From the IMG/VR virus record IMGVR_UViG_3300042321_000183: DNA of 13,438 nt, one strand, 5' to 3'. The stretch is from a virus (taxonomy: Duplodnaviria; Heunggongvirae; Uroviricota; Caudoviricetes). The notes beneath the pieces were generated by a model. It had not been told where the DNA came from, did not search any database, and saw only the letters and a list, made by a program, of their open reading frames with translations. Positions 3 through 13,438 of this stretch are shown one piece after another. Positions within the stretch are counted from its first letter, which is position 1; every line of letters starts with the position of its first letter. The translations under genes were made by a program, and so were the position numbers.

Positions 3-605
3 TGTTATGGTAGACCTGAGAGAACCAAACGATCTATACAATGTATATTAGACCAAGATACTAATAATTGGGAAGCCTTTATAATGGGAGACTGTTGTCC
101 AGATTTTCAAAAACTTATTGATAGTGGATATTTACAATCTATTAAAGAGGAACAAGAAAAAAAAGGAAACATTATTCATTTCTTTAATGCTAAAGAAAAT
201 GGAGGAGGATGTGGATATAAATTAATTAACTATGCAATACAAAATGCTACAGGTAAATATTTTATATTCTATGCAAATGATGATATTATACTTAGTAGTC
301 ATTTTAGTAATTACCTAGAAATAGAAAATACCAATTTAGATTATATGTTCTTTGACTCCTTCATAGATCCTATTAATAAAGCTAGAGTGTCAAAATTTGC
401 TAATTGTGAAATAGGTCATAGTGAAATAATATTAACAACAGAACTAGCCAAAAAATTACCAGAACATTTACCAATATATGGACACGACTGGGAATTTATA
501 TATGGTATGTCAAAAGAAGGGAAAGGAGAAAAATCAAAAAGTACCAATTTATCTTATAGAATTATGCATGTACCAATGTTTGGTACAAATGATATAATAG
601 ACTAA
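3..605 (+). CDS. Glycosyltransferase family 2 (GT-A fold), 5'-truncated by the window edge
   Basis: The frame of the 84..605 ORF is open back to base 3: CYGRPERTKRSIQCILDQDTNNWEAFIMGD matches the GT2 N-terminal pattern; ANDD is a DxD-like motif. Confidence 0.8.
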   Translation, partial: CYGRPERTKRSIQCILDQDTNNWEAFIMGDCCPDFQKLIDSGYLQSIKEEQEKKGNIIHFFNAKENGGGCGYKLINYAIQNATGKYFIFYANDDIILSSHFSNYLEIENTNLDYMFFDSFIDPINKARVSKFANCEIGHSEIILTTELAKKLPEHLPIYGHDWEFIYGMSKEGKGEKSKSTNLSYRIMHVPMFGTNDIID

Positions 606-640: not shown

Positions 641-842
641 ATTTTGATAGTCTCTTTTGTTTAAGAGGCCACATTTTACTTCTCAATCTAAGCTTTGTAT
701 CAGCTTCCTTCATATAATTACCATTAATTGGATTAGGAGGAGCCACCTTAGGTGCAGGTCTTGGTTTACCTGATCCTTTAGCTTTACCTGCAGTCATTGG
801 CTTTACTGACTTTGCTTGTTTAACGCTTACTTTAGATTTCAT
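639..842 (-). CDS. Small Lys/Pro-rich basic protein (67 aa), putative virion core protein
   Basis: Start moved to ATG 842, which overlaps the upstream stop (TAATG); MKSKVSVKQAK...KPRPAPKVAPPNP...KQKRLSK. Confidence 0.75.
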   Translation of the reverse strand: MKSKVSVKQAKSVKPMTAGKAKGSGKPRPAPKVAPPNPINGNYMKEADTKLRLRSKMWPLKQKRLSK

Positions 843-1309
843 TAGCAACCATTTTTACACTTACCACCCATCTTCATCACAGATTTGCCATACTTAGCTT
901 TAGTTAAACCTACAGCTTTTGTATTTTTACCTTTGTAGTTTTTACCAATTATATCTTTGTAAGAACCTAATTGCATAGATAAGCCATCTTTCTTAGGAGC
1001 AGATAATATACCACCATTTTTCATCATCTTCTTAGGTACCATAGAAGCAGCTTCACCACCATATTGCATTTTCTTCTTAGGAGTTTTACCAGCTTTCTTC
1101 ATAGCGATTGCTATTGCAGCTTGCTTAGCAGCTTTACCACCCATTTTCATCATTTCCATACCAGACATAGCTTTTTTCTTAGCACCTGCAATCTTATCTG
1201 CAAATGTAGGATTAGGATTATTATCTATACCTTTTTTTACTGATAACATTCCAAACGCTGTTTTTTCAGCTTTTTTCATCTTTGCAATTCCATTTTGAGC
1301 TTTCTTCAT
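842..1309 (-). CDS. Lys/Met-rich basic protein with repeated [AM]-[KQ]-x-G(G) motifs
   Basis: 155 aa, about 24% Lys by hand count; KKAQNG, KKAMSG, MMKMGG, KMQYGG, MMKNGG, KAKYG, VMKMGG, KCKNG; contains a KQAAIAIA segment seen in phage basic proteins. Confidence 0.8.
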   Translation of the reverse strand: MKKAQNGIAKMKKAEKTAFGMLSVKKGIDNNPNPTFADKIAGAKKKAMSGMEMMKMGGKAAKQAAIAIAMKKAGKTPKKKMQYGGEAASMVPKKMMKNGGILSAPKKDGLSMQLGSYKDIIGKNYKGKNTKAVGLTKAKYGKSVMKMGGKCKNGC

Positions 1310-1327
1310 TTTTTATAATTTAATATT

Positions 1328-1717
1328 TTAACAATTCCATTTACGAAGTGATTTATTAATTCTGCTATTAGGATCATTAGCTGTCTTAGCAGATGTAAGT
1401 TTCTTTTTCATACCTGACATTCTAGAACAGAAAGACTTACGTCTACTTGCTGCTTTAGAACCAGCTTTAAGCTTTGATGGTTTAGTTGTAACAGCTGTCT
1501 TTAGTTTGCTGCCTGGGTTAGCTCTTCTATAAGAAGCTACACCTTTAGCATTCAATCCACCTTCAGGATTCTTTCCTTCTTTGCGTTGCCATGCTGGTGT
1601 AGAACCACCACTTTTTTGGTAGCCCATTTTATTTCTAACTTCCTTAGGGAGTTTAGCCAAACCAGGTTTCTTAGAACTATCTACTGGTTTTAGAGAAGCT
1701 TTTTTAATTGTAGCCAT
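1328..1717 (-). CDS. Basic phage protein with DUF6321-like C-terminal module
   Basis: TPAWQRKEGKNPEGGLNAKG...RRKSFCSRMSGM...DPNSRINKSLRKWNC is a widespread phage module (recalled as DUF6321); N-terminus MATIKKA. Confidence 0.8.
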   Translation of the reverse strand: MATIKKASLKPVDSSKKPGLAKLPKEVRNKMGYQKSGGSTPAWQRKEGKNPEGGLNAKGVASYRRANPGSKLKTAVTTKPSKLKAGSKAASRRKSFCSRMSGMKKKLTSAKTANDPNSRINKSLRKWNC

Positions 1718-1719
1718 AG

Positions 1720-2232
1720 CTATTTCTTTTTACCTTTATATTTGTAATCAGGATTATCTTTGTGCCATTTCTTTGTAGAAGCTACACCCTGTTTAACAGT
1801 TTTGGCTCTTCCAATCTTTGTAAGATCTATTGTATCCCACTTGCCTTTGTCTTTGGTAGGATGGTTAACCATAATGTTACCCTTCTTACCTTTTCCAACT
1901 CCTGTAGGACTAGTCTTTTTATATACTAAATGCTTCTCTCCACCAGCCATTACTTTTACCTTCCCTCCATCTTCCATGGTTTTTTTAACACAGTTGTTAA
2001 CTATTCTACCACCTTTTTTCTTTGTACCCTTCTTAACATACCCTGTCCAACATTTTATCTTACCACCATTCTTTAATGATGTACCATCTTTTTTAATTAG
2101 ATGACCATTAGGAACAGGTGTTATAGCACCTTTGATAGCTGGAAGTGTATCTCCATTTCTAAGAACTCTTTTACCTACATAAGCTTCTGCTTTCTGTGGG
2201 TTATAAACTTTTGTCTTAGGTATTCTAGCCAT
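1720..2232 (-). CDS. Basic mosaic phage protein containing a CW-x-GY...NC module
   Basis: 170 aa, Lys-rich; KCWTGYVKKGTKKKGGRIVNNCVKK module is flanked by SLKNGG and TMEDGG. Confidence 0.8.
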   Translation of the reverse strand: MARIPKTKVYNPQKAEAYVGKRVLRNGDTLPAIKGAITPVPNGHLIKKDGTSLKNGGKIKCWTGYVKKGTKKKGGRIVNNCVKKTMEDGGKVKVMAGGEKHLVYKKTSPTGVGKGKKGNIMVNHPTKDKGKWDTIDLTKIGRAKTVKQGVASTKKWHKDNPDYKYKGKKK

Positions 2233-2681
2233 TATTTTTTCATCTTCTTTAATGTCATTGCTAAACGAGCACGTTGACCTAATTTACCTTTTGCTTTGGC
2301 AGCCTTAGCAAGCTTAGCAGCAGGGATAGGTTTACCTGGTTTAGCACCAAGTTGAGCACGTAAAGCTCCTGGCTTCTTAATAGCTTTTTGAATCCATTTG
2401 CCATCTTTAGCTTTAGGATTTTCTTGACTAGCTATATATTTTTTTTCTTCTGGTGTAAGAGTGTTATATCTAACAGAATCAGCACTATTCATCATAGCTT
2501 TTCTACTATTCTGTTTTTCTAAATTATACAAATCTTTACCAGTAGATCTATAATATCTATCTCCTTGAGAAGTTTTAAATCTATCAAGTTTATCATAGGT
2601 ACCAGTTTTACTATCCATAGTTGTACGTGTCCCTACAGACATTCCAGTTTGAGCCTTTTTAACCTTTTTAGCTGTTGCCAT
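2232..2681 (-). CDS. Basic phage protein with C-terminal KWIQKAIKKPGAL module
   Basis: 149 aa; N-terminal KKAQTG; C-terminal KWIQKAIKKPGALRAQLG...KLGQRARLAMTLKKM module follows KAKDG. Confidence 0.8.
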   Translation of the reverse strand: MATAKKVKKAQTGMSVGTRTTMDSKTGTYDKLDRFKTSQGDRYYRSTGKDLYNLEKQNSRKAMMNSADSVRYNTLTPEEKKYIASQENPKAKDGKWIQKAIKKPGALRAQLGAKPGKPIPAAKLAKAAKAKGKLGQRARLAMTLKKMKK

Positions 2682-2683
2682 GA

Positions 2684-3019
2684 TTATTTCTTTTTAGATT
2701 TTAACTTAGGAGCCATTTCACCACTACGCTTTTCTATCAATTCAGATTCACGCTTTAACGCTGCTTTTCTGAATGTAGCTGGATTCATTTCTTTGTAAGC
2801 TGGAGTCTTCTTATCAAGACCATAAGACTTTTCAGAACGTCCCATACTAGTAGCACCAAGTTCTTTATCTTTTTTTAATGTAGGTTTCATTCTAGCATCA
2901 GCTAGAGTAGCCTCTTGAACTTTAGTCCAAGCACCATTAGGATCTACAGGACCTACACGCTTATCAGAAGCTTTCATTCCTGAAAGACTACCCATTCTGT
3001 CTTTTTTTACCTTTGCCAT
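2684..3019 (-). CDS. Basic hypothetical protein (111 aa)
   Basis: Lys-rich; N-terminus MAKVKK; start overlaps the upstream stop (TAATG at 3019). Confidence 0.75.
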   Translation of the reverse strand: MAKVKKDRMGSLSGMKASDKRVGPVDPNGAWTKVQEATLADARMKPTLKKDKELGATSMGRSEKSYGLDKKTPAYKEMNPATFRKAALKRESELIEKRSGEMAPKLKSKKK

Positions 3020-3489
3020 TATTTTTTAGTTTTAGCTTTAATTTTCTTTTCTTGTTTTAACATAGCAGCTGTAGGCTTCTTTCCAGACCCTTTGTTAGCT
3101 CTAATGTTATCCCATAGTCCTCTTTTAGAATATGAACCATCAGCACGCTTTAGCATACCACCATTTTTCATACCTGCAACTTCATCTATAGCTTTAGAAA
3201 CTTTTGCAGCAGTTAATTTAGGTTTTTTAGTAGCTGCTTTTGCTTTCTTTATTTCAGCTTCTGAGAAGTTAGAAATCATTTCTTTCAAAGGATTATTTGT
3301 CTTAGCTGAAGCTTTCTTCTTAGCCATAGCAGCTTTACCAAACACACCAGATTTGTCTAGCTCTTTAGCTTGCTTTCTGCCAATCTCATCTATTTCAGAC
3401 TTCTTGTACATTTTACCAGTCATTTCACCTGGTACCATTTTAGAAGCTGATTTCTTAATACCAGCTTGAGCTTTCTTAATTGTTGCCAT
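3019..3489 (-). CDS. Lys/Ala-rich, histone H1-like basic protein with C-terminal GLWDNIRA module
   Basis: 156 aa; MATIKKAQAG; KKAKAATKKPKLTAAK; GMKNGG precedes MLKRADGSYSKRGLWDNIRANKG. Confidence 0.8.
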   Translation of the reverse strand: MATIKKAQAGIKKSASKMVPGEMTGKMYKKSEIDEIGRKQAKELDKSGVFGKAAMAKKKASAKTNNPLKEMISNFSEAEIKKAKAATKKPKLTAAKVSKAIDEVAGMKNGGMLKRADGSYSKRGLWDNIRANKGSGKKPTAAMLKQEKKIKAKTKK

Positions 3490-3755
3490 TATAAACTAGA
3501 TTTATTTTCTGGAACCTCTACTACTAAACCAGATTCAACTCCAGCAGCCAATGTCTCTTCAAGAACATCTCCTGCTTGTTTAGCTAATAAAATAGTTTGT
3601 GCTTCCTTTGTATTAATAACTGCACGCATTGCGTTTAATAACATTCCAAAATCACCACCATCTAATACAAACTTTGCATCCATATTCCACGTATACTTCT
3701 TGTTTGGATCAAACTTAGGACCTTGTTGTTGTTGTAAATCAATAATCTCTGCCAT
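3489..3755 (-). CDS. Hypothetical protein (88 aa)
   Basis: Coupled to the next gene (TAATG at 3489); first gene after the promoter at 3780-3811; no recognised motif. Confidence 0.75.
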   Translation of the reverse strand: MAEIIDLQQQQGPKFDPNKKYTWNMDAKFVLDGGDFGMLLNAMRAVINTKEAQTILLAKQAGDVLEETLAAGVESGLVVEVPENKSSL

Positions 3756-3779
3756 ATAATTATATTTTTGGTTTAGTCA

Positions 3780-3811
3780 CAAAGATATGCATTTATTGCG
3801 TATCTTCCAAA
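3780..3811 (-). promoter_or_regulatory. Bacteroidota primary-sigma promoter (-33 TTTG / -7 TAnnTTTG)
   Basis: Minus strand reads TTTG (3811-3808), 20 nt, TATCTTTG (3787-3780), 24 nt upstream of ATG 3755. Confidence 0.75.
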
Positions 3812-4086
3812 TTTATTTCAAACGTTATAGTTGCTGAACTTTTAATACTCTTAGACAGATTCAGTCTAATCTTGAACATGTTATGAAACTTTAAGATTTC
3901 TTCTAGCAACATTTCATTGTACATGGGTACTGAAGGTGCCAATCTAAAGTGATACGAATTAGGATTTTTAGTAATCTCTAACGTAGATAGTTCATCAACT
4001 GAGGATATAATTCCCTCAAGGTGTGCAAAATAAGCAAGTTCATTATCTTGCATCACCTGAGGAAAAAATTTCTTGTTAATTTGCAT
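3793..4086 (-). CDS. Hypothetical protein (97 aa)
   Basis: TAATG-coupled to the ferritin-like gene; globular-looking composition; no recognised family. Confidence 0.75.
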   Translation of the reverse strand: MQINKKFFPQVMQDNELAYFAHLEGIISSVDELSTLEITKNPNSYHFRLAPSVPMYNEMLLEEILKFHNMFKIRLNLSKSIKSSATITFEINLEDTQ

Positions 4087-4490
4087 TAAGACAAGGTTAA
4101 TAAGTATTTAGTTTTTGCTGCTTCACCACTTAGGGCATCAGCTAAATTGGCTATATCGTGATAGCTGTTTGATTCAGCATATCTCTTTAAGTTACTAGAG
4201 AAGTCCATTAGTGCTGTGACAACTGAATTAGAGTCTGCACCGCTCAATGCTTCTATTTTATATACACCAGGACGTTTACCTGTATAACCCATAAGCTTCT
4301 CTATCACACCATCTTTAAAGTCATGTACATAATCATACAATCCTCCTAAAGCTTGGTGCTCAGCATAACTTTTTGTCTGCCAATGTAATAGGTGTAGTTG
4401 CTCATGGAAATATGTAAGCTTCCCAGCTATTGTTTCCAAGTTTAATTCCCCTGATTTCATCATCTCTTCAGGGAATAATGATTTTGCCAT
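4086..4490 (-). CDS. Dps/ferritin-like four-helix protein (DUF5856-like)
   Basis: HLLHWQTKSYAEHQALGGLYD...KDGVIEKLMG; the His(15 residues)Asp(4 residues)Glu spacing matches Dps ferroxidase ligands. Confidence 0.8.
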   Translation of the reverse strand: MAKSLFPEEMMKSGELNLETIAGKLTYFHEQLHLLHWQTKSYAEHQALGGLYDYVHDFKDGVIEKLMGYTGKRPGVYKIEALSGADSNSVVTALMDFSSNLKRYAESNSYHDIANLADALSGEAAKTKYLLTLS

Positions 4491-4504
4491 GTTGTTTGGT
4501 TTTA

Positions 4505-4750
4505 TTATCCAGGACTAGTTGTTGTTGTGGTAGTTGTGCTAGTAGAAGTGCTAGTAGTAGTAGTAGTTGTACTTGTGCTACTAGTAGATGTTGTAGTTGT
4601 AGTAGGAGGATTACAACACTCATTTGCATCTATCTCTTGCCAGTTACCAACCTTTGGTTTGAATCTTTGTAAGATCAAACTACCTGCTATGACACGTCCT
4701 GTACCATCGTAACGTACATATGCTTTTAATCTATTATTGCTATTTGCCAT
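4505..4750 (-). CDS. Small protein with conserved ~47-aa domain and poly-Thr/Ser tail (paralog B)
   Basis: LKAYVRYDGTGRVIAGSLIL...KPKVGNWQEI...ECCN followed by 30 consecutive Thr/Ser residues. Confidence 0.85.
   Translation of the reverse strand: MANSNNRLKAYVRYDGTGRVIAGSLILQRFKPKVGNWQEIDANECCNPPTTTTTSTSSTSTTTTTTSTSTSTTTTTTTSPG
4514..4603 (-). repeat. Imperfect ACN/AGT codon repeat encoding 30 consecutive Thr/Ser
   Basis: Plus strand shows runs of agt/tgt triplets. Confidence 0.85.
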
Positions 4751-4762
4751 GTTTATTTAATT

Positions 4763-5002
4763 TTAACGAGGTTCAGTTGTAGTTGTTGTTGTTGTAGGAG
4801 TAGCTGTAGTAGTAGTTGTTGTAGTACTACTTGTACTAGTGGTAGTGGTAGGAACGTAATTGCAGCATTCATAAGCTGGGATCTCTACCCACTTACCCAC
4901 TTTTGGTTTCTTTCTTCTTAGAATTAGGCTACTTGGAACGATTCTTCCAGTACCATCAAAGCGTACATAGGCTTTGAGAGGGCGATTAGTATTCTGGGCC
5001 AT
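4763..5002 (-). CDS. Small protein with conserved ~48-aa domain and poly-Thr/Ser tail (paralog A)
   Basis: LKAYVRFDGTGRIVPSSLIL...KPKVGKWVEI...ECCN followed by a 25-residue stretch with 23 Thr/Ser. Confidence 0.85.
   Translation of the reverse strand: MAQNTNRPLKAYVRFDGTGRIVPSSLILRRKKPKVGKWVEIPAYECCNYVPTTTTSTSSTTTTTTTATPTTTTTTTEPR
4775..4849 (-). repeat. Imperfect triplet repeat encoding the poly-Thr tail
   Basis: Plus strand shows agt/tgt/ggt triplet runs. Confidence 0.8.
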
Positions 5003-5004
5003 AA

Positions 5005-6021
5005 TTAATAATTTATATTATATTTGTTTTTTATTTCTATTAGTTGTTGAGTGTAGTAATGATTAGCATGTTTTTTAGTAGTCTCATCACTAAGCACTTT
5101 TAGTATGTGTGTATCTAGAAAAGGATCTTTACCAGTGTGATATGCTCCTTTATAGAAAGCAGGGTATCCCATTGTGTTCTGTCCTGTAATACCTGCGTTA
5201 TGTAATATTGTTGTTCTATCAAGCTTCTCTATAGGATCTGAAGACCAACAGAATTCCATCTCAGGAATGTTCTTTGCTTCTTGTTCTCTAAGCCAAATGT
5301 TCCATAACACAGCCCACATATCTGCACACCAGCTTTGGAACCCTGTGTTCTCATCTTTAAAGAACTCTTTGTTTATATTCTGAAGGTAGACACGTATTAA
5401 TATACAGTCATTCATCACCTTCTTCCAGAAGTTAGAGTCTATGTTCTTTAAGAAATACTGAGCTCCTCCTGAGTGATCATTGTTAGCTTCAGCTATCTCT
5501 CTTGTTATACCCACTAAGCTTGTAAGCTCAGCTAAGACATCTCTAGTTTGGTACTCTTCCACCTTATCAAATAAGACATCTTTTAATTTACTATCAAAAT
5601 ATGAAGCATTGATGTAACTGTTTGTATCAGATAGATAGTTTATATCATCATCTTTAAACTTGTCAACATCAAATTTATCTGTAAAGATTACGTCACAATC
5701 ACAGTAAAACACTGCTTTGGTAACCATATCAGGATTATCCTGGAAATATCTCATTAAGCAGTAAGGACGTAGAATAGGAATATAAACTCCTAAATACTGA
5801 CTTACGTCTCCTGAATCCTTGTAGAAAGCAAACTTTGCTTCAGGATACAGTTCCATGATCTTCTCCCATTTGCCATTGTATTCTCTAAAACTAGGTGTAT
5901 ACACTAAAACAATTGCCTTGTCTGAGTGTCCAAGCTTCTTCAAGCTTTCCAACCATAGATGTACTTGCCATGTGTAGTAGACATCATCTGGTTGTGCACA
6001 GATAAATTTAAGATCCTTCAT
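5005..6021 (-). CDS. GT-A glycosyltransferase resembling HPAT/SGT1 (GT95/GT96) protein O-glycosyltransferases
   Basis: Colinear motifs DDVYYTWQ, ILRPY, YCDCD (DxD), SGGAQY, SWCADMWA, ILHNAG and FYKGAY correspond to recalled plant motifs DSVYNTWQ/YFDWQ, LNRPW/INKP, LDAD/EPD, VGG, GWVLEMYA, IIHY and FDKRSY; no signal peptide or TM segment. Confidence 0.7.
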   Translation of the reverse strand: MKDLKFICAQPDDVYYTWQVHLWLESLKKLGHSDKAIVLVYTPSFREYNGKWEKIMELYPEAKFAFYKDSGDVSQYLGVYIPILRPYCLMRYFQDNPDMVTKAVFYCDCDVIFTDKFDVDKFKDDDINYLSDTNSYINASYFDSKLKDVLFDKVEEYQTRDVLAELTSLVGITREIAEANNDHSGGAQYFLKNIDSNFWKKVMNDCILIRVYLQNINKEFFKDENTGFQSWCADMWAVLWNIWLREQEAKNIPEMEFCWSSDPIEKLDRTTILHNAGITGQNTMGYPAFYKGAYHTGKDPFLDTHILKVLSDETTKKHANHYYTQQLIEIKNKYNINY

Positions 6022-6047
6022 ATATGTAGTTTGTTGGTTTCTCTTTA

Positions 6048-6185
6048 TTAAGGAGTAGCTGTAGTGGTTGTAGTAGTCGTCCCACCTTTATATAATATAC
6101 CTGTAAGGTATTCCAATTGCTTAGATATTTGCCAAAGCAATTTAGATTTTTGACTCCAGCCTATTTGTTGTGAAGGTATTGCCAT
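6048..6185 (-). CDS. 45-aa protein: fibre-type N-terminal domain plus poly-Thr tail (not in ORF track)
   Basis: [45 protein letters not shown]; clear paralog of the N-terminus of 6198..7166; fills the intergenic gap. Confidence 0.85.
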   Translation of the reverse strand: MAIPSQQIGWSQKSKLLWQISKQLEYLTGILYKGGTTTTTTTATP

Positions 6186-6197
6186 TATTAATATATT

Positions 6198-7166
6198 TTA
6201 TCCTACTTGATTTACTGTTACAATTAGACCAGGGATAGCAGGAACATTTCCTGTAGCTGCAGCTGATTGGATAACTATTGCATCGTTTACATTACTATTT
6301 ATTTCCCATTTAAGCTGTACATATTCATTAGCCACTGTTGTCTTGAAAAAGAAATTCCAAGCTGCTACAACATACACAGAGTTAGAAGGAAATCCTAATT
6401 GAGAAGCACTAGTAGGTACATTTGTACCATTTTGTGATAGCCAAATGTGTGCATGCGTTGCAGTGTTACCAGCATTTTTTACCATCTGTGCACTAAATTG
6501 TATATTATATACACCAGGATTAGCTATTGTTATTTGATTACCAGAAACAAGTGAAACACCATTATTCCAAGAATCTGAATTAGTAAGACCCATTGTAAGA
6601 ACAGCTCCTGCAAGACCTGTTTGACTTGTAGTATCATAGAAAGATCCTAAATAACCACCAACAACCCCATTAACTCCACTAGTTCCTGCAGTTCCTGCAA
6701 TACCAGCTGTTCCAGCTGTACCACTTACTCCTGAAGTACCTGATTCACCTGATGTTCCTGAAGTACCATCTATACCAGAAGTACCAGTTTCGCCACTTGT
6801 TCCTGATGAACCATTATCACCTGAAGTTCCAGCTGTTCCATTTATTCCACTAGTACCATCTATACCAGAAGTTCCATCAATTCCTGAAGTACCACTTGTT
6901 CCACTAACTCCATTAGTACCACTGATACCATTGGTACCACTGATACCAGATGTACCAGAAAGACCTGAAGTTCCAGACGTACCTACAACACCACTAGTTC
7001 CTGATGTTCCTGATAAACCAGCAGCACCACTTGTACCAGAGGTACCAGTGCCACCACCACCACCTGCGTTATATGCAACACCATTTATAGCTTCTAATTG
7101 CTTAGAAATTTGCCATAAAAGGTTTTCTTCTGTTCCCCATCCTATCTGTCTGCTTGGTATAGCCAT
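6198..7166 (-). CDS. Collagen-like (Gly-X-Y) fibre protein with C-terminal beta-sandwich head (C1q/TNF/BclA-CTD-like)
   Basis: N-terminal [10 protein letters not shown]...[10 protein letters not shown]; 43 uninterrupted G-X-Y triplets; C-terminal GSFYDT...[10 protein letters not shown]...IWLSQNG...WNFF...YVQL...VTVNQV beta-rich domain. Confidence 0.85.
6660..7046 (-). repeat. Gly-X-Y repeat, 43 triplets, 18 of them GTS, no Pro
   Basis: Direct translation of aa 41-169. Confidence 0.9.
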
Positions 7167-7185
7167 GATTGAAAAAATTAATGCC

Positions 7186-7215
7186 CAAAGGTATGTTACT
7201 TTTTACTATTAACAA
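7186..7215 (-). promoter_or_regulatory. Bacteroidota-type promoter for the fibre/glycosylation operon
   Basis: Minus strand reads TTG (7215-7213), 19 nt, TACCTTTG (7193-7186), 19 nt upstream of ATG 7166. Confidence 0.7.
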
Positions 7216-7274
7216 TGACTGTCAATAATTTACAATAACAATTTTAGTTATAAGTGTTTTAACTTTTTTAGTTA

Positions 7275-7403
7275 TTATCTGCCCTGTCTGTTGTAAGGCT
7301 TAGTTGCTTTGTCCTTAGGACCTTTGAACTTAGTAGCCTTTCCTCCTTTGCGTTTTCCAAAGGTAATTTTCTTAGCATTTGATGCTCCTTTTGCTTTTGC
7401 CAT
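7275..7403 (-). CDS. 42-aa highly basic peptide ending YNRQGR (not in ORF track)
   Basis: MAKAKGASNAKKITFGKRKGGKATKFKGPKDKATKPYNRQGR*; leader TAAATAACCAAC-ATG; the C-terminus resembles small phage proteins ending Y-x-G-Q-G-[RK]. Confidence 0.8.
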   Translation of the reverse strand: MAKAKGASNAKKITFGKRKGGKATKFKGPKDKATKPYNRQGR

Positions 7404-7408
7404 GTTGG

Positions 7409-7825
7409 TTATTTATGTAATGATGAAATTGTACCAAATTGTATAAGAACAATTAATATTAATAGTCCTTTAGATATTTCATGTAACCTATCTCTACCAC
7501 GTTGATCTTTCTCTTGACTCAAGAATATCTCCCTGTTTGCTTCATACTTCCATTTGTATTGCATAGCTTCATACATTAGTCTTCCAAGACTATCATATTT
7601 TCTTTGCAAGGAGTCAATCTTTACTCTATTTAATTGAGTATCAACCTTTAAGAGATCTATCTGAGCTCTGTAGTTTTTATACAAAGTATTGATTTGATCT
7701 CCCTGTTCTACAGTCATAATGACTACAGAATCTTTACCTATTCTTCTTGTCTTTGGGTATTGGCAATAAGATGAAACTGATACCAGTGTCAATGCTAACA
7801 CTATCAAGAGCTGCTTTAGCTTCAT
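7409..7825 (-). CDS. Secreted coiled-coil protein with C-terminal TM anchor (spanin-like, type I topology)
   Basis: Sec signal MKLKQLLIVLALTLVSVSSYC|Q (Gln at +1, typical of Bacteroidota); heptad-like middle; C-terminal GLLILIVLIQFGTI. Confidence 0.7.
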   Translation of the reverse strand: MKLKQLLIVLALTLVSVSSYCQYPKTRRIGKDSVVIMTVEQGDQINTLYKNYRAQIDLLKVDTQLNRVKIDSLQRKYDSLGRLMYEAMQYKWKYEANREIFLSQEKDQRGRDRLHEISKGLLILIVLIQFGTISSLHK

Positions 7826-8075
7826 TTAATTCTGTTTTGAGAGTGGTAACCTCTTCTTTGAGGTTGGTTATATTTTGAACTGTTTCTTTTACAATCTTCT
7901 TTTGTGTCTCACTAGCCTTGGCTTGAACCTGTAGGCTTATTTTAGTATTTGTTTCAACTTCGTTAAGAAGTTGTTCAAACTTCCTGTCTTCTTCAACAGA
8001 GCTATCAATTTTTTGAGCAGTTGTATTTTGGCACCCATAGATGAATGGTATTAATATGATTAATAAGTATTTCAT
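7734..8075 (-). CDS. Coiled-coil lipoprotein (o-spanin-like)
   Basis: MKYLLIILIPFIYG|C lipobox-like signal; heptad region ITNLKEEVTTLKTELNEAKAAL; located in the lysis module. Confidence 0.65.
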   Translation of the reverse strand: MKYLLIILIPFIYGCQNTTAQKIDSSVEEDRKFEQLLNEVETNTKISLQVQAKASETQKKIVKETVQNITNLKEEVTTLKTELNEAKAALDSVSIDTGISFILLPIPKDKKNR

Positions 8076-8377
8076 TAGTTAAGCTTTTTAATTGCTCCTA
8101 ATTGTTGTAATGTCTGTAACTGAGTACTAGTTACAGCTTTGGCTGAATCACTCACTCTAAGTGCTTCCTGCACTCTATCCAATCTAGTTTCCACCTTATC
8201 AATACGTACATTCTGAGAAGTTGCCTGCTCTTTGAATGTTGTACGAACGTCTATGTACAGGTATGAAATAGCAATGAGCACCAAGAAAAGGGTGCCCACT
8301 ATTGGGTTTTTAGCAAACTCCTTAAACGATATAGGTAAAGGGTTTGCTGAAATGTTTGTTTCTTTTTTTGCTGCCAT
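8075..8377 (-). CDS. Single-TM coiled-coil membrane protein (i-spanin-like)
   Basis: TM IVGTLFLVLIAISYLYI then IDKVETRLDRVQEAL; TAATG-coupled on both sides. Confidence 0.65.
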   Translation of the reverse strand: MAAKKETNISANPLPISFKEFAKNPIVGTLFLVLIAISYLYIDVRTTFKEQATSQNVRIDKVETRLDRVQEALRVSDSAKAVTSTQLQTLQQLGAIKKLN

Positions 8378-8523
8378 TATTTATAGTTTTTTAAAACTTG
8401 TTGAGCATTAAGTGCTGTCCATACATTGTACAATACCTCACTGTTATGTTTTAATAGTTCTGCTTTTTTAACTCCAGAGCGTCTGCTACGCATTGCTTTA
8501 GGTTTTTTCTTAGCGTTAGCCAT
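8377..8523 (-). CDS. 48-aa basic hypothetical protein (not in ORF track)
   Basis: MANAKKKPKAMRSRRSGVKKAELLKHNSEVLYNVWTALNAQQVLKNYK*; TAATG overlaps at both ends, so it exactly fills the gap. Confidence 0.75.
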   Translation of the reverse strand: MANAKKKPKAMRSRRSGVKKAELLKHNSEVLYNVWTALNAQQVLKNYK

Positions 8524-9128
8524 TATATACTACCATTTAAAAGGTTGTTGTATTCATTAAAATGTTTGATACGATCAGCAAGACCAATTGTACCACCATT
8601 AACACGCTTAGTCACCTTGGTTACCACAGCATCTGTAGCTCCCTCATCAGCAATCTTATGTAATCCATTCTTATGGAAGAACCAAGCAGCAGATAAAAGT
8701 GGGTACTTTGTAGCTACAAGTTCTGGGTTAGCTAAGATGTCATCCTCTACCACTTTATCAAAAGCAGTGTAGTTATCCTTTCCTGTTAACTGGATGTAAC
8801 CACGTCCTCTAAACTTAAATCCTTCTCCACTTGCTTGAGGTCCATTACCCATACGATTAGCATAGACAATGTTAGCAATCTTTTCAGGTTTGCGTTCAAA
8901 CTCCTTAGCACTCTCAGCAGTAAAGTATTTCTTAAATATGCTCTGTAAACCAGCAGCACCATAGTTTAAGTTTTCTGTAACAGCTTTGAATCCACCTGAC
9001 TCATGTCCTGTTTGTGCTAGGAAATGAGCTAAACGTAAAGGTGTATTGATCTCAAACTTCTCCTGCACAGCAGGAATCTGAGCAATCACTCCATCAGGAA
9101 TGTGTCCTTTTAATTTATCTAAGTTCAT
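8523..9128 (-). CDS. Glycoside hydrolase family 19 endolysin
   Basis: LAHFLAQTGHESGGF, ENLNY, FRGRGYIQLTGKDNY and TKRVNGGTIGLADR GH19 motifs. Confidence 0.93.
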   Translation of the reverse strand: MNLDKLKGHIPDGVIAQIPAVQEKFEINTPLRLAHFLAQTGHESGGFKAVTENLNYGAAGLQSIFKKYFTAESAKEFERKPEKIANIVYANRMGNGPQASGEGFKFRGRGYIQLTGKDNYTAFDKVVEDDILANPELVATKYPLLSAAWFFHKNGLHKIADEGATDAVVTKVTKRVNGGTIGLADRIKHFNEYNNLLNGSI

Positions 9129-10400: not shown

Positions 10401-10769
10401 TTAGTAGGGCTGGTAGGATTTCTCCTCTACAAAGTCAGACCCATACTTAATATTAATTTCTTTTTTAATATGTGCTCTTTTATCATTCAACTTGTAGACA
10501 GATCTAGCTAAATCAATAAACTCTTCTCCAAAACTATTAGCTCTTTCAAAGTCTCTTATAAGATCTTCCACTTTCCAAAGAGCTTTATTAACTTCAAGCA
10601 ACATGTCTGTCAAAGGATCATGTAATATCTCAGGATGTACAGCATCATTTAGATAAGTTTTCTCTTTGAAAACATTAACTAGTTTGTCTTTGTCTGTAAT
10701 GTTCAGAGCTTTGATAGAAAGTATAGTCCATTTGTCTACAACTTCCCCCACAGAAACTTCAATTTTCAT
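10401..10769 (-). CDS. DUF6165-like protein (122 aa)
   Basis: Start reassigned to MKIEVSVGEVVDKWTILSIK...LWKVED.IR.FE...F...F..LARSVY..ND.RA.IKKEIN...GS..VEEKSY; this start removes the overlap with the GT9 gene. Confidence 0.75.
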   Translation of the reverse strand: MKIEVSVGEVVDKWTILSIKALNITDKDKLVNVFKEKTYLNDAVHPEILHDPLTDMLLEVNKALWKVEDLIRDFERANSFGEEFIDLARSVYKLNDKRAHIKKEINIKYGSDFVEEKSYQPY

Positions 10770-10793
10770 AGTAAAAATGTTTTTTATTTCCAA

Positions 10794-10824
10794 CAAATAT
10801 AGTAACTTTGTTTTAAATAACCAA
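10794..10824. promoter_or_regulatory. Back-to-back divergent Bacteroidota promoters
   Basis: CAAATATA-G-TAACTTTG (10794-10810) gives TAnnTTTG on both strands; the minus-strand copy has TTG 20 nt upstream (10824-10822); lies in the 58-bp gap between divergent starts. Confidence 0.75.
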
Positions 10825-10827
10825 CAG

Positions 10828-11754
10828 ATGAAACCAGTTTGTTTAAATCTAGAAGAATGTAATGGATTGGGTGATCTTATCTGTGCCACCCCCACTATTA
10901 AAAAGCTTCATGATGCGTATCAAAGAAAGATTATAGTCATCTCTCAGATGCCTGAGTTGTTTAAGATGAACCCTTATGTAGAAAAGAGCTACAAAGCTAG
11001 CTCTATAGACATGACGTACATACAAAGTAATTACATTATACATAATTCATTCTATCTAGTGGGTAAGAAAGATGAGCGTGGTATAGAGATGAAGCACAAC
11101 ATGATGGATATTAGGCAGTTCCATGCTATACATCTAGGATTTATGCTTGGAAAAGATGAATTAGAATGTTTCTATCAGCCTACAGAAGAACCTAATGTTT
11201 CTGTAGAGGGTAGATATGCTGTGATACATCCTGTTAATAGCTGGCCCAATAGAACTTGGTCACAAGAGAACTGGCTTAAACTAGTTGATGAATTAAATAA
11301 ATGGGGCTACAAAGTGGTGGCAGTTGGTAAGGATAGTTCTGAGACAGGATTCTTTAATGTAAACAAACCTGTACATAAGATGGACGATAACGTTATAAAC
11401 CTTATGAATAAGACATCCATCGCTCAAACTTGGCATCTCATTAACAATGCTAAGGTTGTTATCACCATGGACTCAGGTATTCTACATCTAGCAGGCACAA
11501 CCAAAACTGACATTGTTGAGTTAGGATCTCCTATCAATCCAGAGTTTCGTACACCACATAGACAAGAAGGCAAGCACATATATGTAAGAGGAGGTTGTGG
11601 ATTACATTGTAATTCTAATATGAAATATGCTCTTGAGTATTGGCCAACAATAGATTATGTACAACCATTAATAGGATGCTTAGAGAAGAAAGAAACTTTT
11701 GAATGTCATCCATCTGTAGAACAAGTAATTCACGCAATCAATAATAATTTATAA
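10828..11754 (+). CDS. Glycosyltransferase family 9 (heptosyltransferase-like, GT-B)
   Basis: Start reassigned to ATG 10828 (308 aa); GLGDLICATPTIKKL, IHP..SWPNRTW..ENW, INNAKVVITMDSGILHLAG; Cys-rich C-terminus. Confidence 0.85.
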   Translation: MKPVCLNLEECNGLGDLICATPTIKKLHDAYQRKIIVISQMPELFKMNPYVEKSYKASSIDMTYIQSNYIIHNSFYLVGKKDERGIEMKHNMMDIRQFHAIHLGFMLGKDELECFYQPTEEPNVSVEGRYAVIHPVNSWPNRTWSQENWLKLVDELNKWGYKVVAVGKDSSETGFFNVNKPVHKMDDNVINLMNKTSIAQTWHLINNAKVVITMDSGILHLAGTTKTDIVELGSPINPEFRTPHRQEGKHIYVRGGCGLHCNSNMKYALEYWPTIDYVQPLIGCLEKKETFECHPSVEQVIHAINNNL

Positions 11755-11755
11755 T

Positions 11756-12451
11756 ATGTCAGAACAACAAAACCAAGGAGGAGTAATAGTACCAATCTTC
11801 CCTATCCCTGTTTTATTAAATAACATCAATAGAGACTTTACTAATGAAGAAATAGAATGTGCATATGAGTATGAAAGTGATGTATTTAGAAATTCATCAA
11901 ACTCTACAACACACAATTTGTATGTTTTAAACAATCCTAAACTTAGTAATGTAAAACTATTCATTGAGTCCATTCTTAATGATTACTTGATAAACGTGTA
12001 TAATCCTATAAATCCAGAAGGACTTAAATTATCTATAACTCAGTCTTGGTTTAATTACACAAAGAAAGAACAATCACATCATCAGCACCATCATCCAAAC
12101 AGTATAATTAGTGGATGTTTATATTTCAATGCAGATAAGAATACAGATAAGATAATGTTTGGAAGAGCATTGCCTAATAATTTACAAATACAGGCAAAAG
12201 AACAAAACATGTATACTTGTGTTGAAGCTTATTTCCCTGTAAATAAAGGAGATATTGTTCTATTCCCATCTACTACAGAACATAGTGTTCCAACAACAAG
12301 TGATGATAAAACTAGAATAAGCCTTGCATTTAATACTTTTTTTTCAGGCAAGATAGGGTATCTTAGTGGTCCATTACAAGGTTTTAACTTTTTAAATATT
12401 ACAGTAGAAGATCAGACAATTGATAATCCATACAAAAAGAGATTTACATAA
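11756..12451 (+). CDS. Putative 2OG-Fe(II) oxygenase (TIGR02466-like)
   Basis: SWFNY...HHQHHHPNSIISGCLY...GDIVLFPS..EHSV...RISLAFN. Confidence 0.85.
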   Translation: MSEQQNQGGVIVPIFPIPVLLNNINRDFTNEEIECAYEYESDVFRNSSNSTTHNLYVLNNPKLSNVKLFIESILNDYLINVYNPINPEGLKLSITQSWFNYTKKEQSHHQHHHPNSIISGCLYFNADKNTDKIMFGRALPNNLQIQAKEQNMYTCVEAYFPVNKGDIVLFPSTTEHSVPTTSDDKTRISLAFNTFFSGKIGYLSGPLQGFNFLNITVEDQTIDNPYKKRFT

Positions 12452-13438
12452 ATGAAAAAGCTATTAATAATCACTCCTCACCTATCAACAGGAGGGGCTC
12501 CTCAGGTAACAGTAAACAAAGTGGAACTGTTAAAAGATTACTTTGAAATTAAGGTGGTAGAGTATTCATTTCTAGCATGGTCATTTGTTGTACAGCGAAA
12601 CAAGATCATTCAAATGCTTACAGAAGGAGTTAACTTCCATTCTTTAGGAGAAGATAAGTATGGTGAACTGTCTGGAATTATTGAACAGTTCAATCCAGAT
12701 GTTATAGTGATGGAAGAGTTTCCTGAGATGTTCATGGACGACAAGCTTTCTGCATTCATCTATTCAGATAATAGAACTTGGAAGATATCAGAGACTACGC
12801 ATGACAGCTCATTCAATCCTAAGCACAAGAGATGGATGCCTGACAAGTTTATATTTGTTAGCTCTTACAACTCATTCCAATACATAGACTTAGATGTACC
12901 TACAGAAGTAATTGAATATCCTATTGATAAGAAGGTTAGAAATAAAGTAGAAAGACAAAAAGACTATGGCTTAGATCCTGAATACAAACACTTTGTAACT
13001 GTAGGACTATTTACACCTAGAAAGAATCAAGCTTATGCATTTCAACTAGCAGAAAGACTTAAGAACTATAAGGTGAAGTTTCACTTCCTAGGTAACCAAG
13101 CAGGTAACTTTGAGAATTATTGGAAGCCACTGATGGCTAATAAACCAAACAACTGTGTTGTCTGGGGAGAGCGTGATGATGTAAGTGACTTCTTAAAAGC
13201 ATGTGATGTATTCTTCTTTCCATCAAAGGGAGATAGAGGTAACAAGGAGTTAAATCCTATTGCTATTAAAGAAGCCATGGAATATGATGACTTGATCAAA
13301 GTGATGTATAATCTAGATGTATACTGTAACAAATATAACAATGAAGAGAACATGGTTTATTTAACTGGAGATCTTGGTAGTGATGCTACCAATATTATCA
13401 AAAAATTAAACTTAGATGTAATGGAAGAAGAGTGTATC
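12452..13438 (+). CDS. Glycosyltransferase family 4 (GT-B), 3'-truncated by the window edge (not in ORF track)
   Basis: Open from ATG 12452 to the edge: MKKLLIITPHLSTGGAPQV...VGLFTPRKNQ...GERDDVSDFLKACDVFFFPS...ELNPIAIKEAM. Confidence 0.85.
   Translation, partial: MKKLLIITPHLSTGGAPQVTVNKVELLKDYFEIKVVEYSFLAWSFVVQRNKIIQMLTEGVNFHSLGEDKYGELSGIIEQFNPDVIVMEEFPEMFMDDKLSAFIYSDNRTWKISETTHDSSFNPKHKRWMPDKFIFVSSYNSFQYIDLDVPTEVIEYPIDKKVRNKVERQKDYGLDPEYKHFVTVGLFTPRKNQAYAFQLAERLKNYKVKFHFLGNQAGNFENYWKPLMANKPNNCVVWGERDDVSDFLKACDVFFFPSKGDRGNKELNPIAIKEAMEYDDLIKVMYNLDVYCNKYNNEENMVYLTGDLGSDATNIIKKLNLDVMEEECI

What the first reader, a model, noticed from the sequence alone, without database searches (positions are those of the whole stretch)
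5005..6021. Viral homolog of a glycosyltransferase family characterised in plants and algae (GT95/GT96)
Seven motifs are colinear with my recollection of Arabidopsis HPAT1 and SGT1: DDVYYTWQ vs DSVYNTWQ, YIPILRPY vs YVVLNRPW, YCDCD vs LDAD, SGG vs VGG, SWCADMWA vs GWVLEMYA, ILHNAG vs IIHYTYG, and FYKGAY vs FDKRSY. The intact DxD is closer to SGT1 (Ser alpha-galactosyltransferase) than to the EPD of HPAT. It lacks the type II membrane anchor of the Golgi enzymes. It could inform the origin of plant extensin glycosylation and provide a soluble bacterial-expressible O-glycosyltransferase.
Basis: partly seen in the sequence, partly recalled or inferred. Interest (0 to 1): 0.75.

Follow-up and report, generated by a model that had tools for sequence, protein, structure and literature searches.

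The report
Phage sugar-transferase resembling plant extensin enzymes
A phage gene encodes a soluble sugar-transferring enzyme whose predicted fold most resembles the plant and algal enzymes that glycosylate cell-wall proteins, and because its gene always travels with poly-threonine tails on phage particle proteins it probably sugar-coats those tails, although no sugar has been shown.

Summary
The ORF at 5005-6021 (minus strand, 338 aa) is real, and all seven quoted motifs are present and fall on conserved columns of a very large, unannotated phage family (PHROG 4417).

- **Fold.** A high-confidence model (pLDDT 96.9) is a GT-A glycosyltransferase with an invariant DxD (D108, D110) and H274. 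Its nine best Swiss-Prot fold matches are all GT96 (SGT1) and GT95 (HPAT, RDN, PLENTY), ahead of GT8. Two other structure libraries agree.
- **Family membership.** By sequence it is not a member: the protein itself has no Pfam HPAT hit, and only 3 of 130 relatives give marginal hits. It is a separate, soluble family and a remote relative.
- **Function.** The stronger result is context. The gene sits beside poly-Thr/Ser-tailed proteins in Bacteroidota, Enterococcus, Staphylococcus, Clostridium and Lactobacillus phages. Among 27 close relatives of one major tail protein, tail and enzyme are present together (12) or absent together (15), never apart. I read it as a Thr/Ser O-glycosyltransferase of virion proteins, analogous to mycobacteriophage virion glycosylation but using a different enzyme.

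This scan has already reported the same enzyme-tail pairing on at least 16 other genomes. I found no paper describing it. Verdict: first reading supported; new variant of a known kind.

The parts
5005..6021 (-). 338-aa soluble GT-A glycosyltransferase (PHROG 4417). Its closest characterised fold relatives are GT95 HPAT and GT96 SGT1.
   Evidence: Translation; PHROG 4417 at E 3e-54; AF2 model pLDDT 96.9; fold searches.
5692..5700 (-). DxD motif (D108-C-D110), the predicted metal and nucleotide-sugar binding site at the end of strand 103-106.
   Evidence: D108 and D110 are invariant in both 64- and 66-sequence alignments; secondary structure.
5200..5202 (-). H274 (ILHNAG motif), the predicted third metal ligand, as in GT8 and GT6 type GT-A enzymes.
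   Evidence: Invariant in A1 and nearly invariant in A4. The ligand role is inferred by analogy with GT-A enzymes (own knowledge).
4763..5002 (-). 79-aa protein: a conserved N-terminal domain of about 47 aa ending in ECCN, then a Thr/Ser tail of about 30 residues. Candidate acceptor substrate. It starts 2 nt after the GT stop codon.
   Evidence: a tract-bearing ORF lies within 1.5 kb on the same strand in 61 of 65 informative loci of this lineage, almost always downstream of the GT.
4505..4750 (-). 81-aa paralogue of the previous gene, with a longer Thr/Ser tail. Candidate acceptor substrate.
6048..6185 (-). 45-aa 'stub' ORF that shares the N-terminal domain of the collagen-like fibre and ends in GGTTTTTTTATP. 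Candidate acceptor substrate immediately upstream of the GT.
   Evidence: the same 47-aa stub is present in related loci L025 and L028.
6198..7166 (-). 322-aa collagen-like Gly-Thr-Ser triplet-repeat fibre protein. A possible further acceptor, and the first gene of the same-strand block.
   Evidence: Pfam Collagen at E 1e-17 and PHROG tail-fibre families.

Best explanation
The gene encodes a soluble, metal-dependent GT-A glycosyltransferase. It belongs to a very large, unannotated phage and bacterial family whose nearest characterised relatives by fold are the plant and algal peptide O-glycosyltransferases GT95 (hydroxyproline arabinosyltransferase) and GT96 (peptidyl-serine alpha-galactosyltransferase). 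Most likely it takes a host-supplied nucleotide sugar, bound through D108/D110/H274 and a divalent cation. It would then transfer the sugar to the hydroxyl groups of Thr/Ser in the extended low-complexity tails of the proteins encoded next to it: here two small ECCN-domain proteins, a 45-aa fibre stub and perhaps the Gly-Thr-Ser fibre; in Bacillota phages the C-terminal tails of the major head and major tail proteins. The result would be a glycan coat on the virion. SHOWN: the fold, the conserved catalytic-type residues, the fold ranking, and the gene adjacency and co-variation. INFERRED: the acceptor, the retaining (alpha-linking) mechanism, which is suggested because all the nearest folds (GT95/96, GT8, GT6, GT24 and the Skp1 alpha-GalT) are retaining enzymes, and the identity of the sugar, which is unknown.
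For: - **Fold and catalytic residues.** The model has pLDDT 96.9 and a GT-A topology. D108, D110 and H274 are invariant.
- **Fold ranking.** Ranks 1-9 in the Swiss-Prot AFDB are all GT96 or GT95. In AFDB clusters most of the clusters after the protein's own family are eukaryotic and many are named HPAT-like, but the first (rank 4) is a generic nucleotide-diphospho-sugar transferase. In the ESM Atlas shape search a Chlorophyta HPAT cluster scores TM 0.71. The language-model neighbours include clusters with PF23452 HPAT on 10% and 58% of members. PF23452 is the only Pfam family hit by more than one of 64 relatives.
- **Solved structures.** The best are retaining GT8-type enzymes, Z 13-14.
- **Fusion partners.** In other members these are GT2, GT32-like, GT6, methyltransferase and radical SAM domains.
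- **Adjacency.** Strict poly-S/T tracts occur at 5.8 per 10 kb within 500 bp of the GT, against about 0.03 per 10 kb beyond 2 kb, in the window's lineage. A second lineage shows 4.3 falling to about 0.4. With a relaxed definition, 61 of 65 and 47 of 65 informative loci are positive.
- **Named phages.** The same pairing occurs in phiFL1A (major tail and major head), MA9V-3, and RQ1, phiCTP1 and Semele. In Bacillota prophages the tailed proteins are phrog_10 major head and phrog_88 major tail proteins.
- **Converse test.** Of 27 relatives of one major tail protein, 12 have tail and GT, 15 have neither and none is discordant. The tree needs 2-4 independent changes.
- **Gene spacing.** The GT stop codon and the next start codon are 2 nt apart.
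Against: - No biochemical evidence exists for any member, and no glycan has been shown on any of these virions.
- The protein has no Pfam, NCBIfam or PDB sequence match. HPAT profile hits in relatives are marginal: 3 of 130, E 0.012-0.045.
- In the Atlas shape search a viral GlcNAc/O-FucT cluster scores almost the same as HPAT (TM 0.70 against 0.71), so the preference for GT95/96 over other GT-A families is moderate, not overwhelming.
- Both sides of the key fold comparison are predicted models.
- The long fused family members in Bacteroidota chromosomes have no adjacent poly-Thr tract, so the acceptor is not the same across the whole family.
- 18 of 65 loci of the second viral lineage lack a nearby tract.
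Confidence: 0.7

Rival explanations
1. The enzyme is a generic retaining GT-A of the GT8 clan. Its top ranking against GT95/96 reflects shared peripheral helices in predicted models, not a specific evolutionary relationship, so it tells us nothing about plant extensin glycosylation.
For: All solved-structure matches are GT8, GT6, GT24 or GT77-type. Sequence identity to HPAT/SGT1 is only 10-14%. Pfam HPAT does not detect the protein, nor the family members in three genomes that carry them. In the Atlas a non-HPAT viral cluster scores TM 0.70 against 0.71.
Against: No GT95/96 structure appeared among the PDB matches, so the PDB ranking may not be able to show them. Where they are represented (Swiss-Prot AFDB) they take ranks 1-9 with better TM and rmsd than GT8: eight of the nine at TM 0.58-0.61 and rmsd 5-6 A, against TM 0.40-0.50 and rmsd 7-13 A for GT8 (Chlamydomonas SGT1, rank 7, is no better than the best GT8 rows at TM 0.50, rmsd 7.5 A). 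They also cover the whole length, residues 2-329. Two further libraries and the language-model search point the same way. HPAT is the only recurrent Pfam hit.
Confidence: 0.2
2. The enzyme does not act on proteins. It modifies phage DNA, or host surface polysaccharide, teichoic acid or LPS (serotype conversion or superinfection exclusion), and its position next to Thr-rich genes is incidental.
For: These are the classic roles of phage glycosyltransferases (review cited in PMC12619734). The window also carries GT2, GT9-like and GT4-like genes. The chromosomal long forms have no adjacent poly-Thr tract.
Against: The gene sits inside structural modules, between the major tail protein and the tail chaperones in three unrelated siphophages. 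Tail and GT co-vary perfectly among close relatives, with repeated gain or loss. Tract density falls off steeply with distance. The carriers differ between lineages (head, tail tube, fibres, small proteins) while the tract is constant. One chromosomal context examined is a peptide-modification cluster.
Confidence: 0.07
3. In this phage the true acceptor is the collagen-like Gly-Thr-Ser fibre (6198-7166), as with BclA-type collagen-like proteins, and the small poly-Thr proteins are unrelated spacers or decoration proteins.
For: The fibre is two-thirds Ser/Thr in its repeat region and lies in the same same-strand block.
Against: In Bacillota phages that have this GT there is no collagen-like fibre next to it, only poly-Thr tails. 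In the window's lineage the constant neighbours are the Thr-tailed small proteins. The two acceptors are not mutually exclusive.
Confidence: 0.1

Closest known systems
GT96 peptidyl-serine alpha-galactosyltransferase (SGT1/SERGT1; Arabidopsis Q8VYF9, Chlamydomonas H3JU05)
   Same: Best Foldseek match in Swiss-Prot (E 4e-10, colinear over query 2-329). It has a GT-A-type catalytic domain. It is a polypeptide O-glycosyltransferase acting on a hydroxy amino acid within a repetitive, extended, low-complexity sequence (own knowledge).
   Different: 12% identity. The plant protein is 750-800 aa, membrane-anchored and located in the secretory pathway, whereas the phage protein is 338 aa and soluble. 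The predicted acceptor here is poly-Thr/Ser rather than Ser-Hyp4. No sequence-profile membership was shown.
GT95 hydroxyproline O-arabinosyltransferases (HPAT1-3, RDN1/2, PLENTY, NOD3; Pfam PF23452)
   Same: Ranks 2-6, 8 and 9 in Swiss-Prot (TM 0.58-0.61, rmsd 5.0-5.3 A, aligned to nearly the whole HPAT catalytic domain 57-356). An Atlas HPAT cluster scores TM 0.71. PF23452 is the only recurrent, though weak, Pfam hit in relatives.
   Different: The protein itself does not match PF23452 even at E 10. It has no type II anchor. The acceptor is presumably Thr/Ser, not Hyp, and the donor is unknown (HPAT uses UDP-L-arabinofuranose; own knowledge).
Mycobacteriophage virion glycosylation (Che8 gp110, Corndog gp38, Myrna; Freeman et al. 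2023, known here through PMC12363180 and PMC12619734)
   Same: Phage-encoded glycosyltransferases modify C-terminal extensions of capsid and tail-tube subunits. The arrangement found here in Bacillota phages is the same: tails on the major head and major tail proteins plus a GT in the structural module.
   Different: A different enzyme family: no Mycobacterium phage is among the 77 phage records with a tblastn match. The hosts also differ (Bacteroidota, Bacillota). In this window the tails sit on small dedicated proteins and fibre stubs rather than on the capsid or tube. Glycosylation is not yet shown for this family.
GT8 retaining glycosyltransferases (glycogenin, LgtC, GlyE of the pneumococcal serine-rich-repeat protein pathway)
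   Same: Best solved-structure matches (Z 13.2-14.2, about 216-238 residues aligned). They share the DxD plus C-terminal His architecture. Glycogenin and GlyE also act on protein-linked acceptors.
   Different: Only about two-thirds of the protein aligns. TM by Foldseek is 0.40-0.50, against 0.58-0.61 for most GT95/96 matches. No relative hit Pfam Glyco_transf_8.

Membership tests
GT95/GT96 (Pfam PF23452 HPAT family) | Sequence match to the family profile above the curated threshold | tested here: not met
   P0001 has no PF23452 hit at E up to 10. Only 2 of 64 and 1 of 66 relatives hit, at E 0.012-0.045, below significance. Three genomes holding family members give no PF23452 match at E up to 1.
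GT95/GT96 (Pfam PF23452 HPAT family) | Same fold, colinear over the whole catalytic domain, and closer than other GT families | tested here: met
   Foldseek ranks 1-9 in Swiss-Prot are all GT96 or GT95, covering query 2-329. AFDB clusters and the Atlas agree. The margin over other GT-A families is moderate.
GT95/GT96 (Pfam PF23452 HPAT family) | Type II membrane anchor and secretory-pathway location | tested here: not met
   There is no hydrophobic N-terminus. The catalytic fold starts at residue 4, whereas it aligns from residue 57-68 in the HPATs.
GT95/GT96 (Pfam PF23452 HPAT family) | O-glycosylation of Hyp or Ser in repetitive extended polypeptide | not testable with these tools
   Only the genomic association with poly-Thr/Ser tails is available.
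GT95/GT96 (CAZy classification) | Assignment by CAZy/dbCAN family models | not tested
   No CAZy or dbCAN library is among the tools.
GT-A fold metal-dependent glycosyltransferases | Rossmann-like GT-A topology with a DxD motif after a central strand and a C-terminal metal-ligand His | tested here: met
   The model has pLDDT 96.9. D108/D110 are invariant in both alignments; H274 is invariant in A1 and nearly invariant (at least 90%) in A4. 108 solved chains score Z 8 or more, and the top-ranked ones are GT-A glycosyltransferases.
GT8 | Match to Pfam Glyco_transf_8 (PF01501) | tested here: not met
   None of the 130 relatives scanned hit PF01501 at E up to 10. Structural similarity only.
Phage virion O-glycosylation systems (mycobacteriophage type) | A phage-encoded GT plus Ser/Thr-rich extensions on virion proteins, inherited together | tested here: met
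   Adjacency statistics; major head and major tail identities; perfect co-variation, 12/0/0/15.
Phage virion O-glycosylation systems (mycobacteriophage type) | Demonstrated glycans on virion proteins | not testable with these tools
   Needs mass spectrometry or glycan staining of virions.

The most novel reading that the evidence does not exclude
This abundant phage and bacterial family is the prokaryotic sister group, or even the source by horizontal transfer, of the eukaryotic GT95/GT96 enzymes. On this reading, O-glycosylation of repetitive hydroxy-amino-acid tracts in plant and algal cell-wall proteins descends from a bacterial or phage system that sugar-coats poly-Thr tails. The family would also define a widespread, undescribed mode of virion glycosylation outside the Actinobacteria.
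Probability: 0.2. Interest if true: 0.85.

Novelty: new variant of a known kind. Interest (0 to 1): 0.65.

Why it matters
- **Scale of the unannotated family.** It has 759 clusters at 50% identity and more than 2,000 at 90%, and sits in PHROG 4417 as 'unknown function'. This work gives it a concrete, testable function.
- **Reach of virion glycosylation.** Glycosylated virions would extend from mycobacteriophages to phages of Bacteroidota, Enterococcus, Staphylococcus, Lactobacillus, Lactococcus and Clostridium. That bears on phage stability, adsorption and immune recognition in phage therapy.
- **A soluble model for GT95/96.** It offers a soluble, bacterially expressible relative of these enzymes, for which no solved structure appeared in the PDB searches here. 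That would be useful for structural and mechanistic work on peptide O-glycosylation and as a tool for glycosylating poly-Thr tags.
- **Origin of the plant enzymes.** It puts the question of where plant extensin-type glycosyltransferases came from on a testable footing.

Tried and rejected
- **Sequence searches of the protein alone.** Pfam, NCBIfam and PDB sequences gave nothing. A profile of 64 relatives against PDB sequences gave only chance-level hits.
- **Megablast of the whole window against named phages.** No match.
- **Locus search with the full 64-sequence alignment.** I used two sub-alignments instead.
- **Bona fide bacterial members of Pfam HPAT (PF23452) for a profile-profile bridge.** None was found in 3 genomes holding family members, in 401 genomes of the Bacteroidota sample, or in 401 genomes of a second phylum. 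The 14 control genomes did not ring either, so this says nothing about absence. The window has no whole genome on hold.
- **Homologue search with the ~300-aa subgroup.** I hoped for relatives with a precomputed HPAT domain, but none of the top 120 carries any Pfam domain.
- **Profile-profile comparison and phylogeny with real HPAT/SGT1 sequences.** Not possible: the tools returned no plant sequence and I did not type any from memory.
- **Promoter and terminator scan of 3700-7500.** Counts were at chance level and so uninformative.
- **Freeman et al. 2023.** The paper is not held, so it is cited only through papers that describe it.
- **Complex prediction of enzyme with substrate.** Not attempted, because the tool's own guidance says enzyme-substrate pairs are rarely informative.

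Full report
**1. The observation**

The minus-strand ORF 5005-6021 encodes 338 residues.

A search of 5.8 billion proteins found more than 2,000 relatives, the best at 95% identity on metagenomic contigs of up to about 118 kb. An exhaustive HMMER search of 50%-identity representatives found 759 clusters.

In a 64-sequence alignment spanning 30-95% identity, the invariant or nearly invariant positions are W18, Y80, R85, Y106, D108, D110, Y136, Y141, K145, G185, G186, Q188, Q229, D234, F257, H274, A276, G277, F289, K291 and Y323.

**2. Annotation status**

The protein has no Pfam, NCBIfam or PDB-sequence match. It belongs to PHROG 4417, 'unknown function' (E 3e-54). In named phages its homologues are annotated 'hypothetical protein'.

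**3. Fold and nearest families**

With the alignment, AlphaFold2 gives a model of mean pLDDT 96.9 and pTM 0.93. It has a GT-A topology: the DxD (D108-C-D110) follows strand 103-106, and H274 ends strand 272-274.

- **Swiss-Prot AFDB (Foldseek).** Ranks 1-9 are Arabidopsis and Chlamydomonas SGT1 (GT96), HPAT1-3, PLENTY, RDN1/2 and NOD3 (GT95). They score E 4e-10 to 5e-7, TM 0.50-0.61 and rmsd 5.0-7.5 A, and are colinear over query residues 2-329. GT8 enzymes follow at E 1.3e-6 or weaker, with TM 0.40-0.50.
- **AFDB fold clusters.** Three clusters of the protein's own family come first (TM 0.76-0.81) and a generic nucleotide-diphospho-sugar transferase cluster is next. Most of the following clusters are eukaryotic, and many are named 'Hydroxyproline O-arabinosyltransferase-like domain-containing'.
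- **ESM Atlas by shape.** A Chlorophyta cluster with PF23452 HPAT on 100% of members scores TM 0.71 (301 residues, rmsd 4.2). A viral cluster with PF11397 and O-FucT domains scores 0.70. PF11397 is, to my knowledge, the Skp1 hydroxyproline GlcNAc-transferase family.
- **Language-model neighbours.** These include a viral cluster with PF23452 on 10% of members and a bacterial cluster with it on 58%.
- **Solved structures.** No GT95/96 entry appears among the matches, and the best are retaining GT8-type enzymes. They are glycogenin (Z 14.2), the Skp1 alpha-galactosyltransferase 6mw8 (14.0), LgtC (13.8), UGGT (13.6), WbbM (13.4) and GlyE of the pneumococcal serine-rich-repeat pathway (13.2). The GT6 enzyme Bogt6a and the PBCV-1 capsid glycosyltransferase A64R also match.

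**4. Sequence-level link**

Pfam holds an HPAT model (PF23452). It is the only family hit by more than one of 64 relatives, but only by 2, with best E 0.012. One of 66 further relatives hits at E 0.045. The protein itself does not hit at all.

Attempts to find bona fide bacterial PF23452 members for a profile-profile bridge failed.

The conclusion is a remote relative that is nearest to GT95/96 by fold. It is not a member by the sequence criterion, and it lacks the membrane anchor.

**5. Context: the main functional clue**

In the window the gene lies in a tightly packed same-strand block:

- a collagen-like Gly-Thr-Ser fibre (6198-7166);
- a 45-aa stub with the fibre's N-terminal domain, ending in GGTTTTTTTATP (6048-6185);
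- the GT;
- 2 nt after its stop codon, a 79-aa protein, followed by an 81-aa paralogue. Each has a conserved domain of about 47 aa ending in ECCN and a Thr/Ser tail of about 30 residues.

Across 160 related viral loci, plus the window and two named-phage loci, 79 of 163 loci have a strict poly-S/T tract (at least 13 of 15 residues) in an ORF within 100 bp of the GT on the same strand.

| Lineage | Tract density near the GT | Tract density far from the GT | Side | Relaxed definition, tract within 1.5 kb |
|---|---|---|---|---|
| Window's lineage | 5.8 per 10 kb within 500 bp | about 0.03 per 10 kb beyond 2 kb | mostly downstream | 61 of 65 informative loci |
| Second lineage | 4.3 per 10 kb within 500 bp | about 0.4 per 10 kb beyond 3 kb | upstream | 47 of 65 informative loci |

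Densities are and the relaxed counts. Two of the four 'negatives' in the window's lineage still carry the Thr-tailed stub.

**6. The pairing in unrelated named phages**

- **Enterococcus phage phiFL1A.** The homologue gp51 lies between the major tail protein and the tail chaperones. Both the major tail protein and the major head protein end in poly-Thr tails.
- **Staphylococcus phage RQ1 and Clostridium phage phiCTP1.** The gene occupies the same slot, after tail-tube proteins that end in poly-Thr.
- **Lactobacillus myophage Semele.** Two Thr-tailed small proteins lie directly upstream.
- **Chryseobacterium phage MA9V-3.** Long poly-Thr/Ser tracts occur in the ORFs upstream.
- **Bacillota prophages.** The tailed proteins match phrog_10 (major head) and phrog_88 (major tail).

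**7. Converse test**

I took 27 viral loci encoding close relatives (65-100% identity) of the phiFL1A major tail protein. Twelve have both a poly-Thr tail and the GT gene, 15 have neither, and none is discordant. Fisher's exact test gives p = 6e-8, which ignores relatedness.

On a tree of the tail-protein cores, the paired character needs between 2 changes (forced by well-supported branches) and 4 (most parsimonious). Tail and enzyme are therefore gained and lost as a unit.

**8. Mechanism proposed**

The enzyme is a cytoplasmic, metal-dependent GT-A. It would use a common host nucleotide sugar to O-glycosylate Thr/Ser in flexible tails of virion-associated proteins before or during assembly.

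All the nearest families are retaining enzymes, so I predict an alpha-linked first sugar; this is inference. Siphophages such as phiFL1A show no other GT in the stretch of the structural module examined, so the glycan there may be single residues or short. This window carries further GT genes that could extend it or serve the fibre: GT2-like at 3-605, GT9-like at 10666-11754 and GT4-like at 12452-13438.

**9. Breadth of the family**

Other members are fused to GT2, GT32-like, GT6, Glyco_transf_7C, methyltransferase or radical SAM/SPASM domains. Long forms of 450-770 aa sit in chromosomes of Chitinophaga, Sphingobacterium, Pedobacter and Mucilaginibacter without adjacent poly-Thr tracts.

The one locus examined lies among radical SAM, LanC-like, GT4-like and S41 peptidase genes. 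This suggests peptide modification rather than virion coating.

**10. Comparison with what is known**

Virion O-glycosylation of C-terminal capsid and tail-tube extensions is established for mycobacteriophages (Freeman et al. 2023, as described in PMC12363180 and PMC12619734). No Mycobacterium phage is among the 77 phage records matched by this protein.

No held paper links HPAT-like enzymes to bacteriophages, or poly-Thr tails on tail proteins to glycosylation.

Within this scan, the same enzyme-tail pairing has already been reported on at least 16 other genomes. One follow-up also reported the plant-like fold. My tests reproduce those readings independently.

**11. Verdict**

The most likely function is Thr/Ser O-glycosylation of virion proteins, at confidence 0.7. 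I class it as a new variant of a known kind, with interest 0.65.

Noticed in passing
window 842-3489 (minus strand): A row of five Lys-rich small proteins with paralogous N-termini (for example M-A-T-I-K-K-A-Q-x-G). They may be internal or DNA-binding virion proteins.
   Followed up: no
window 3-605, 10401-10895, 10666-11754, 11756-12451, 12452-13438: A second set of sugar-related genes on the plus strand: GT2-like, GT9-like (heptosyltransferase family), a 2OG-Fe(II) oxygenase (PF13759, phrog_81) and a GT4/GT1-like gene, plus a DUF6165 gene on the minus strand. They could extend the glycan or modify the collagen-like fibre.
   Followed up: partly
L180:2562-11578 (Chitinophaga niastensis chromosome): A 582-aa fused form of the family (this GT domain plus a Glyco_transf_7C-type domain) sits among radical SAM, LanC-like, GT4-like and S41 peptidase genes. 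This looks like a glycosylated-peptide (RiPP-like) cluster. Similar long forms occur in many Sphingobacterium, Pedobacter and Mucilaginibacter genomes.
   Followed up: partly
L163:3232-3934 (Staphylococcus phage RQ1): The annotated major tail protein ends after a short Thr run. An overlapping ORF in another frame continues with about 60 residues of poly-Thr repeats. This is either a programmed frameshift, a sequencing error in the repeat, or phase variation of tail length.
   Followed up: no
L043:11039-11779 and L067:11042-11779: In some relatives of this phage the ECCN docking-type domain downstream of the GT carries a folded C-terminal domain of about 200 aa instead of a poly-Thr tail. The N-domain therefore behaves as a modular anchor with exchangeable payloads.
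   Followed up: no
window 7409-9128 (minus strand): A GH19-type endolysin (phrog_181, E 9e-68) is followed by three small membrane or coiled-coil proteins at 7409-8377 that may form a spanin-like lysis set.
   Followed up: no
window 4086-4490 (minus strand): A DUF5856 / phrog_858 'starvation-inducible regulator'-like (Dps-like) protein lies directly downstream of the Thr-tailed genes. It is conserved in that position in related loci.
   Followed up: no
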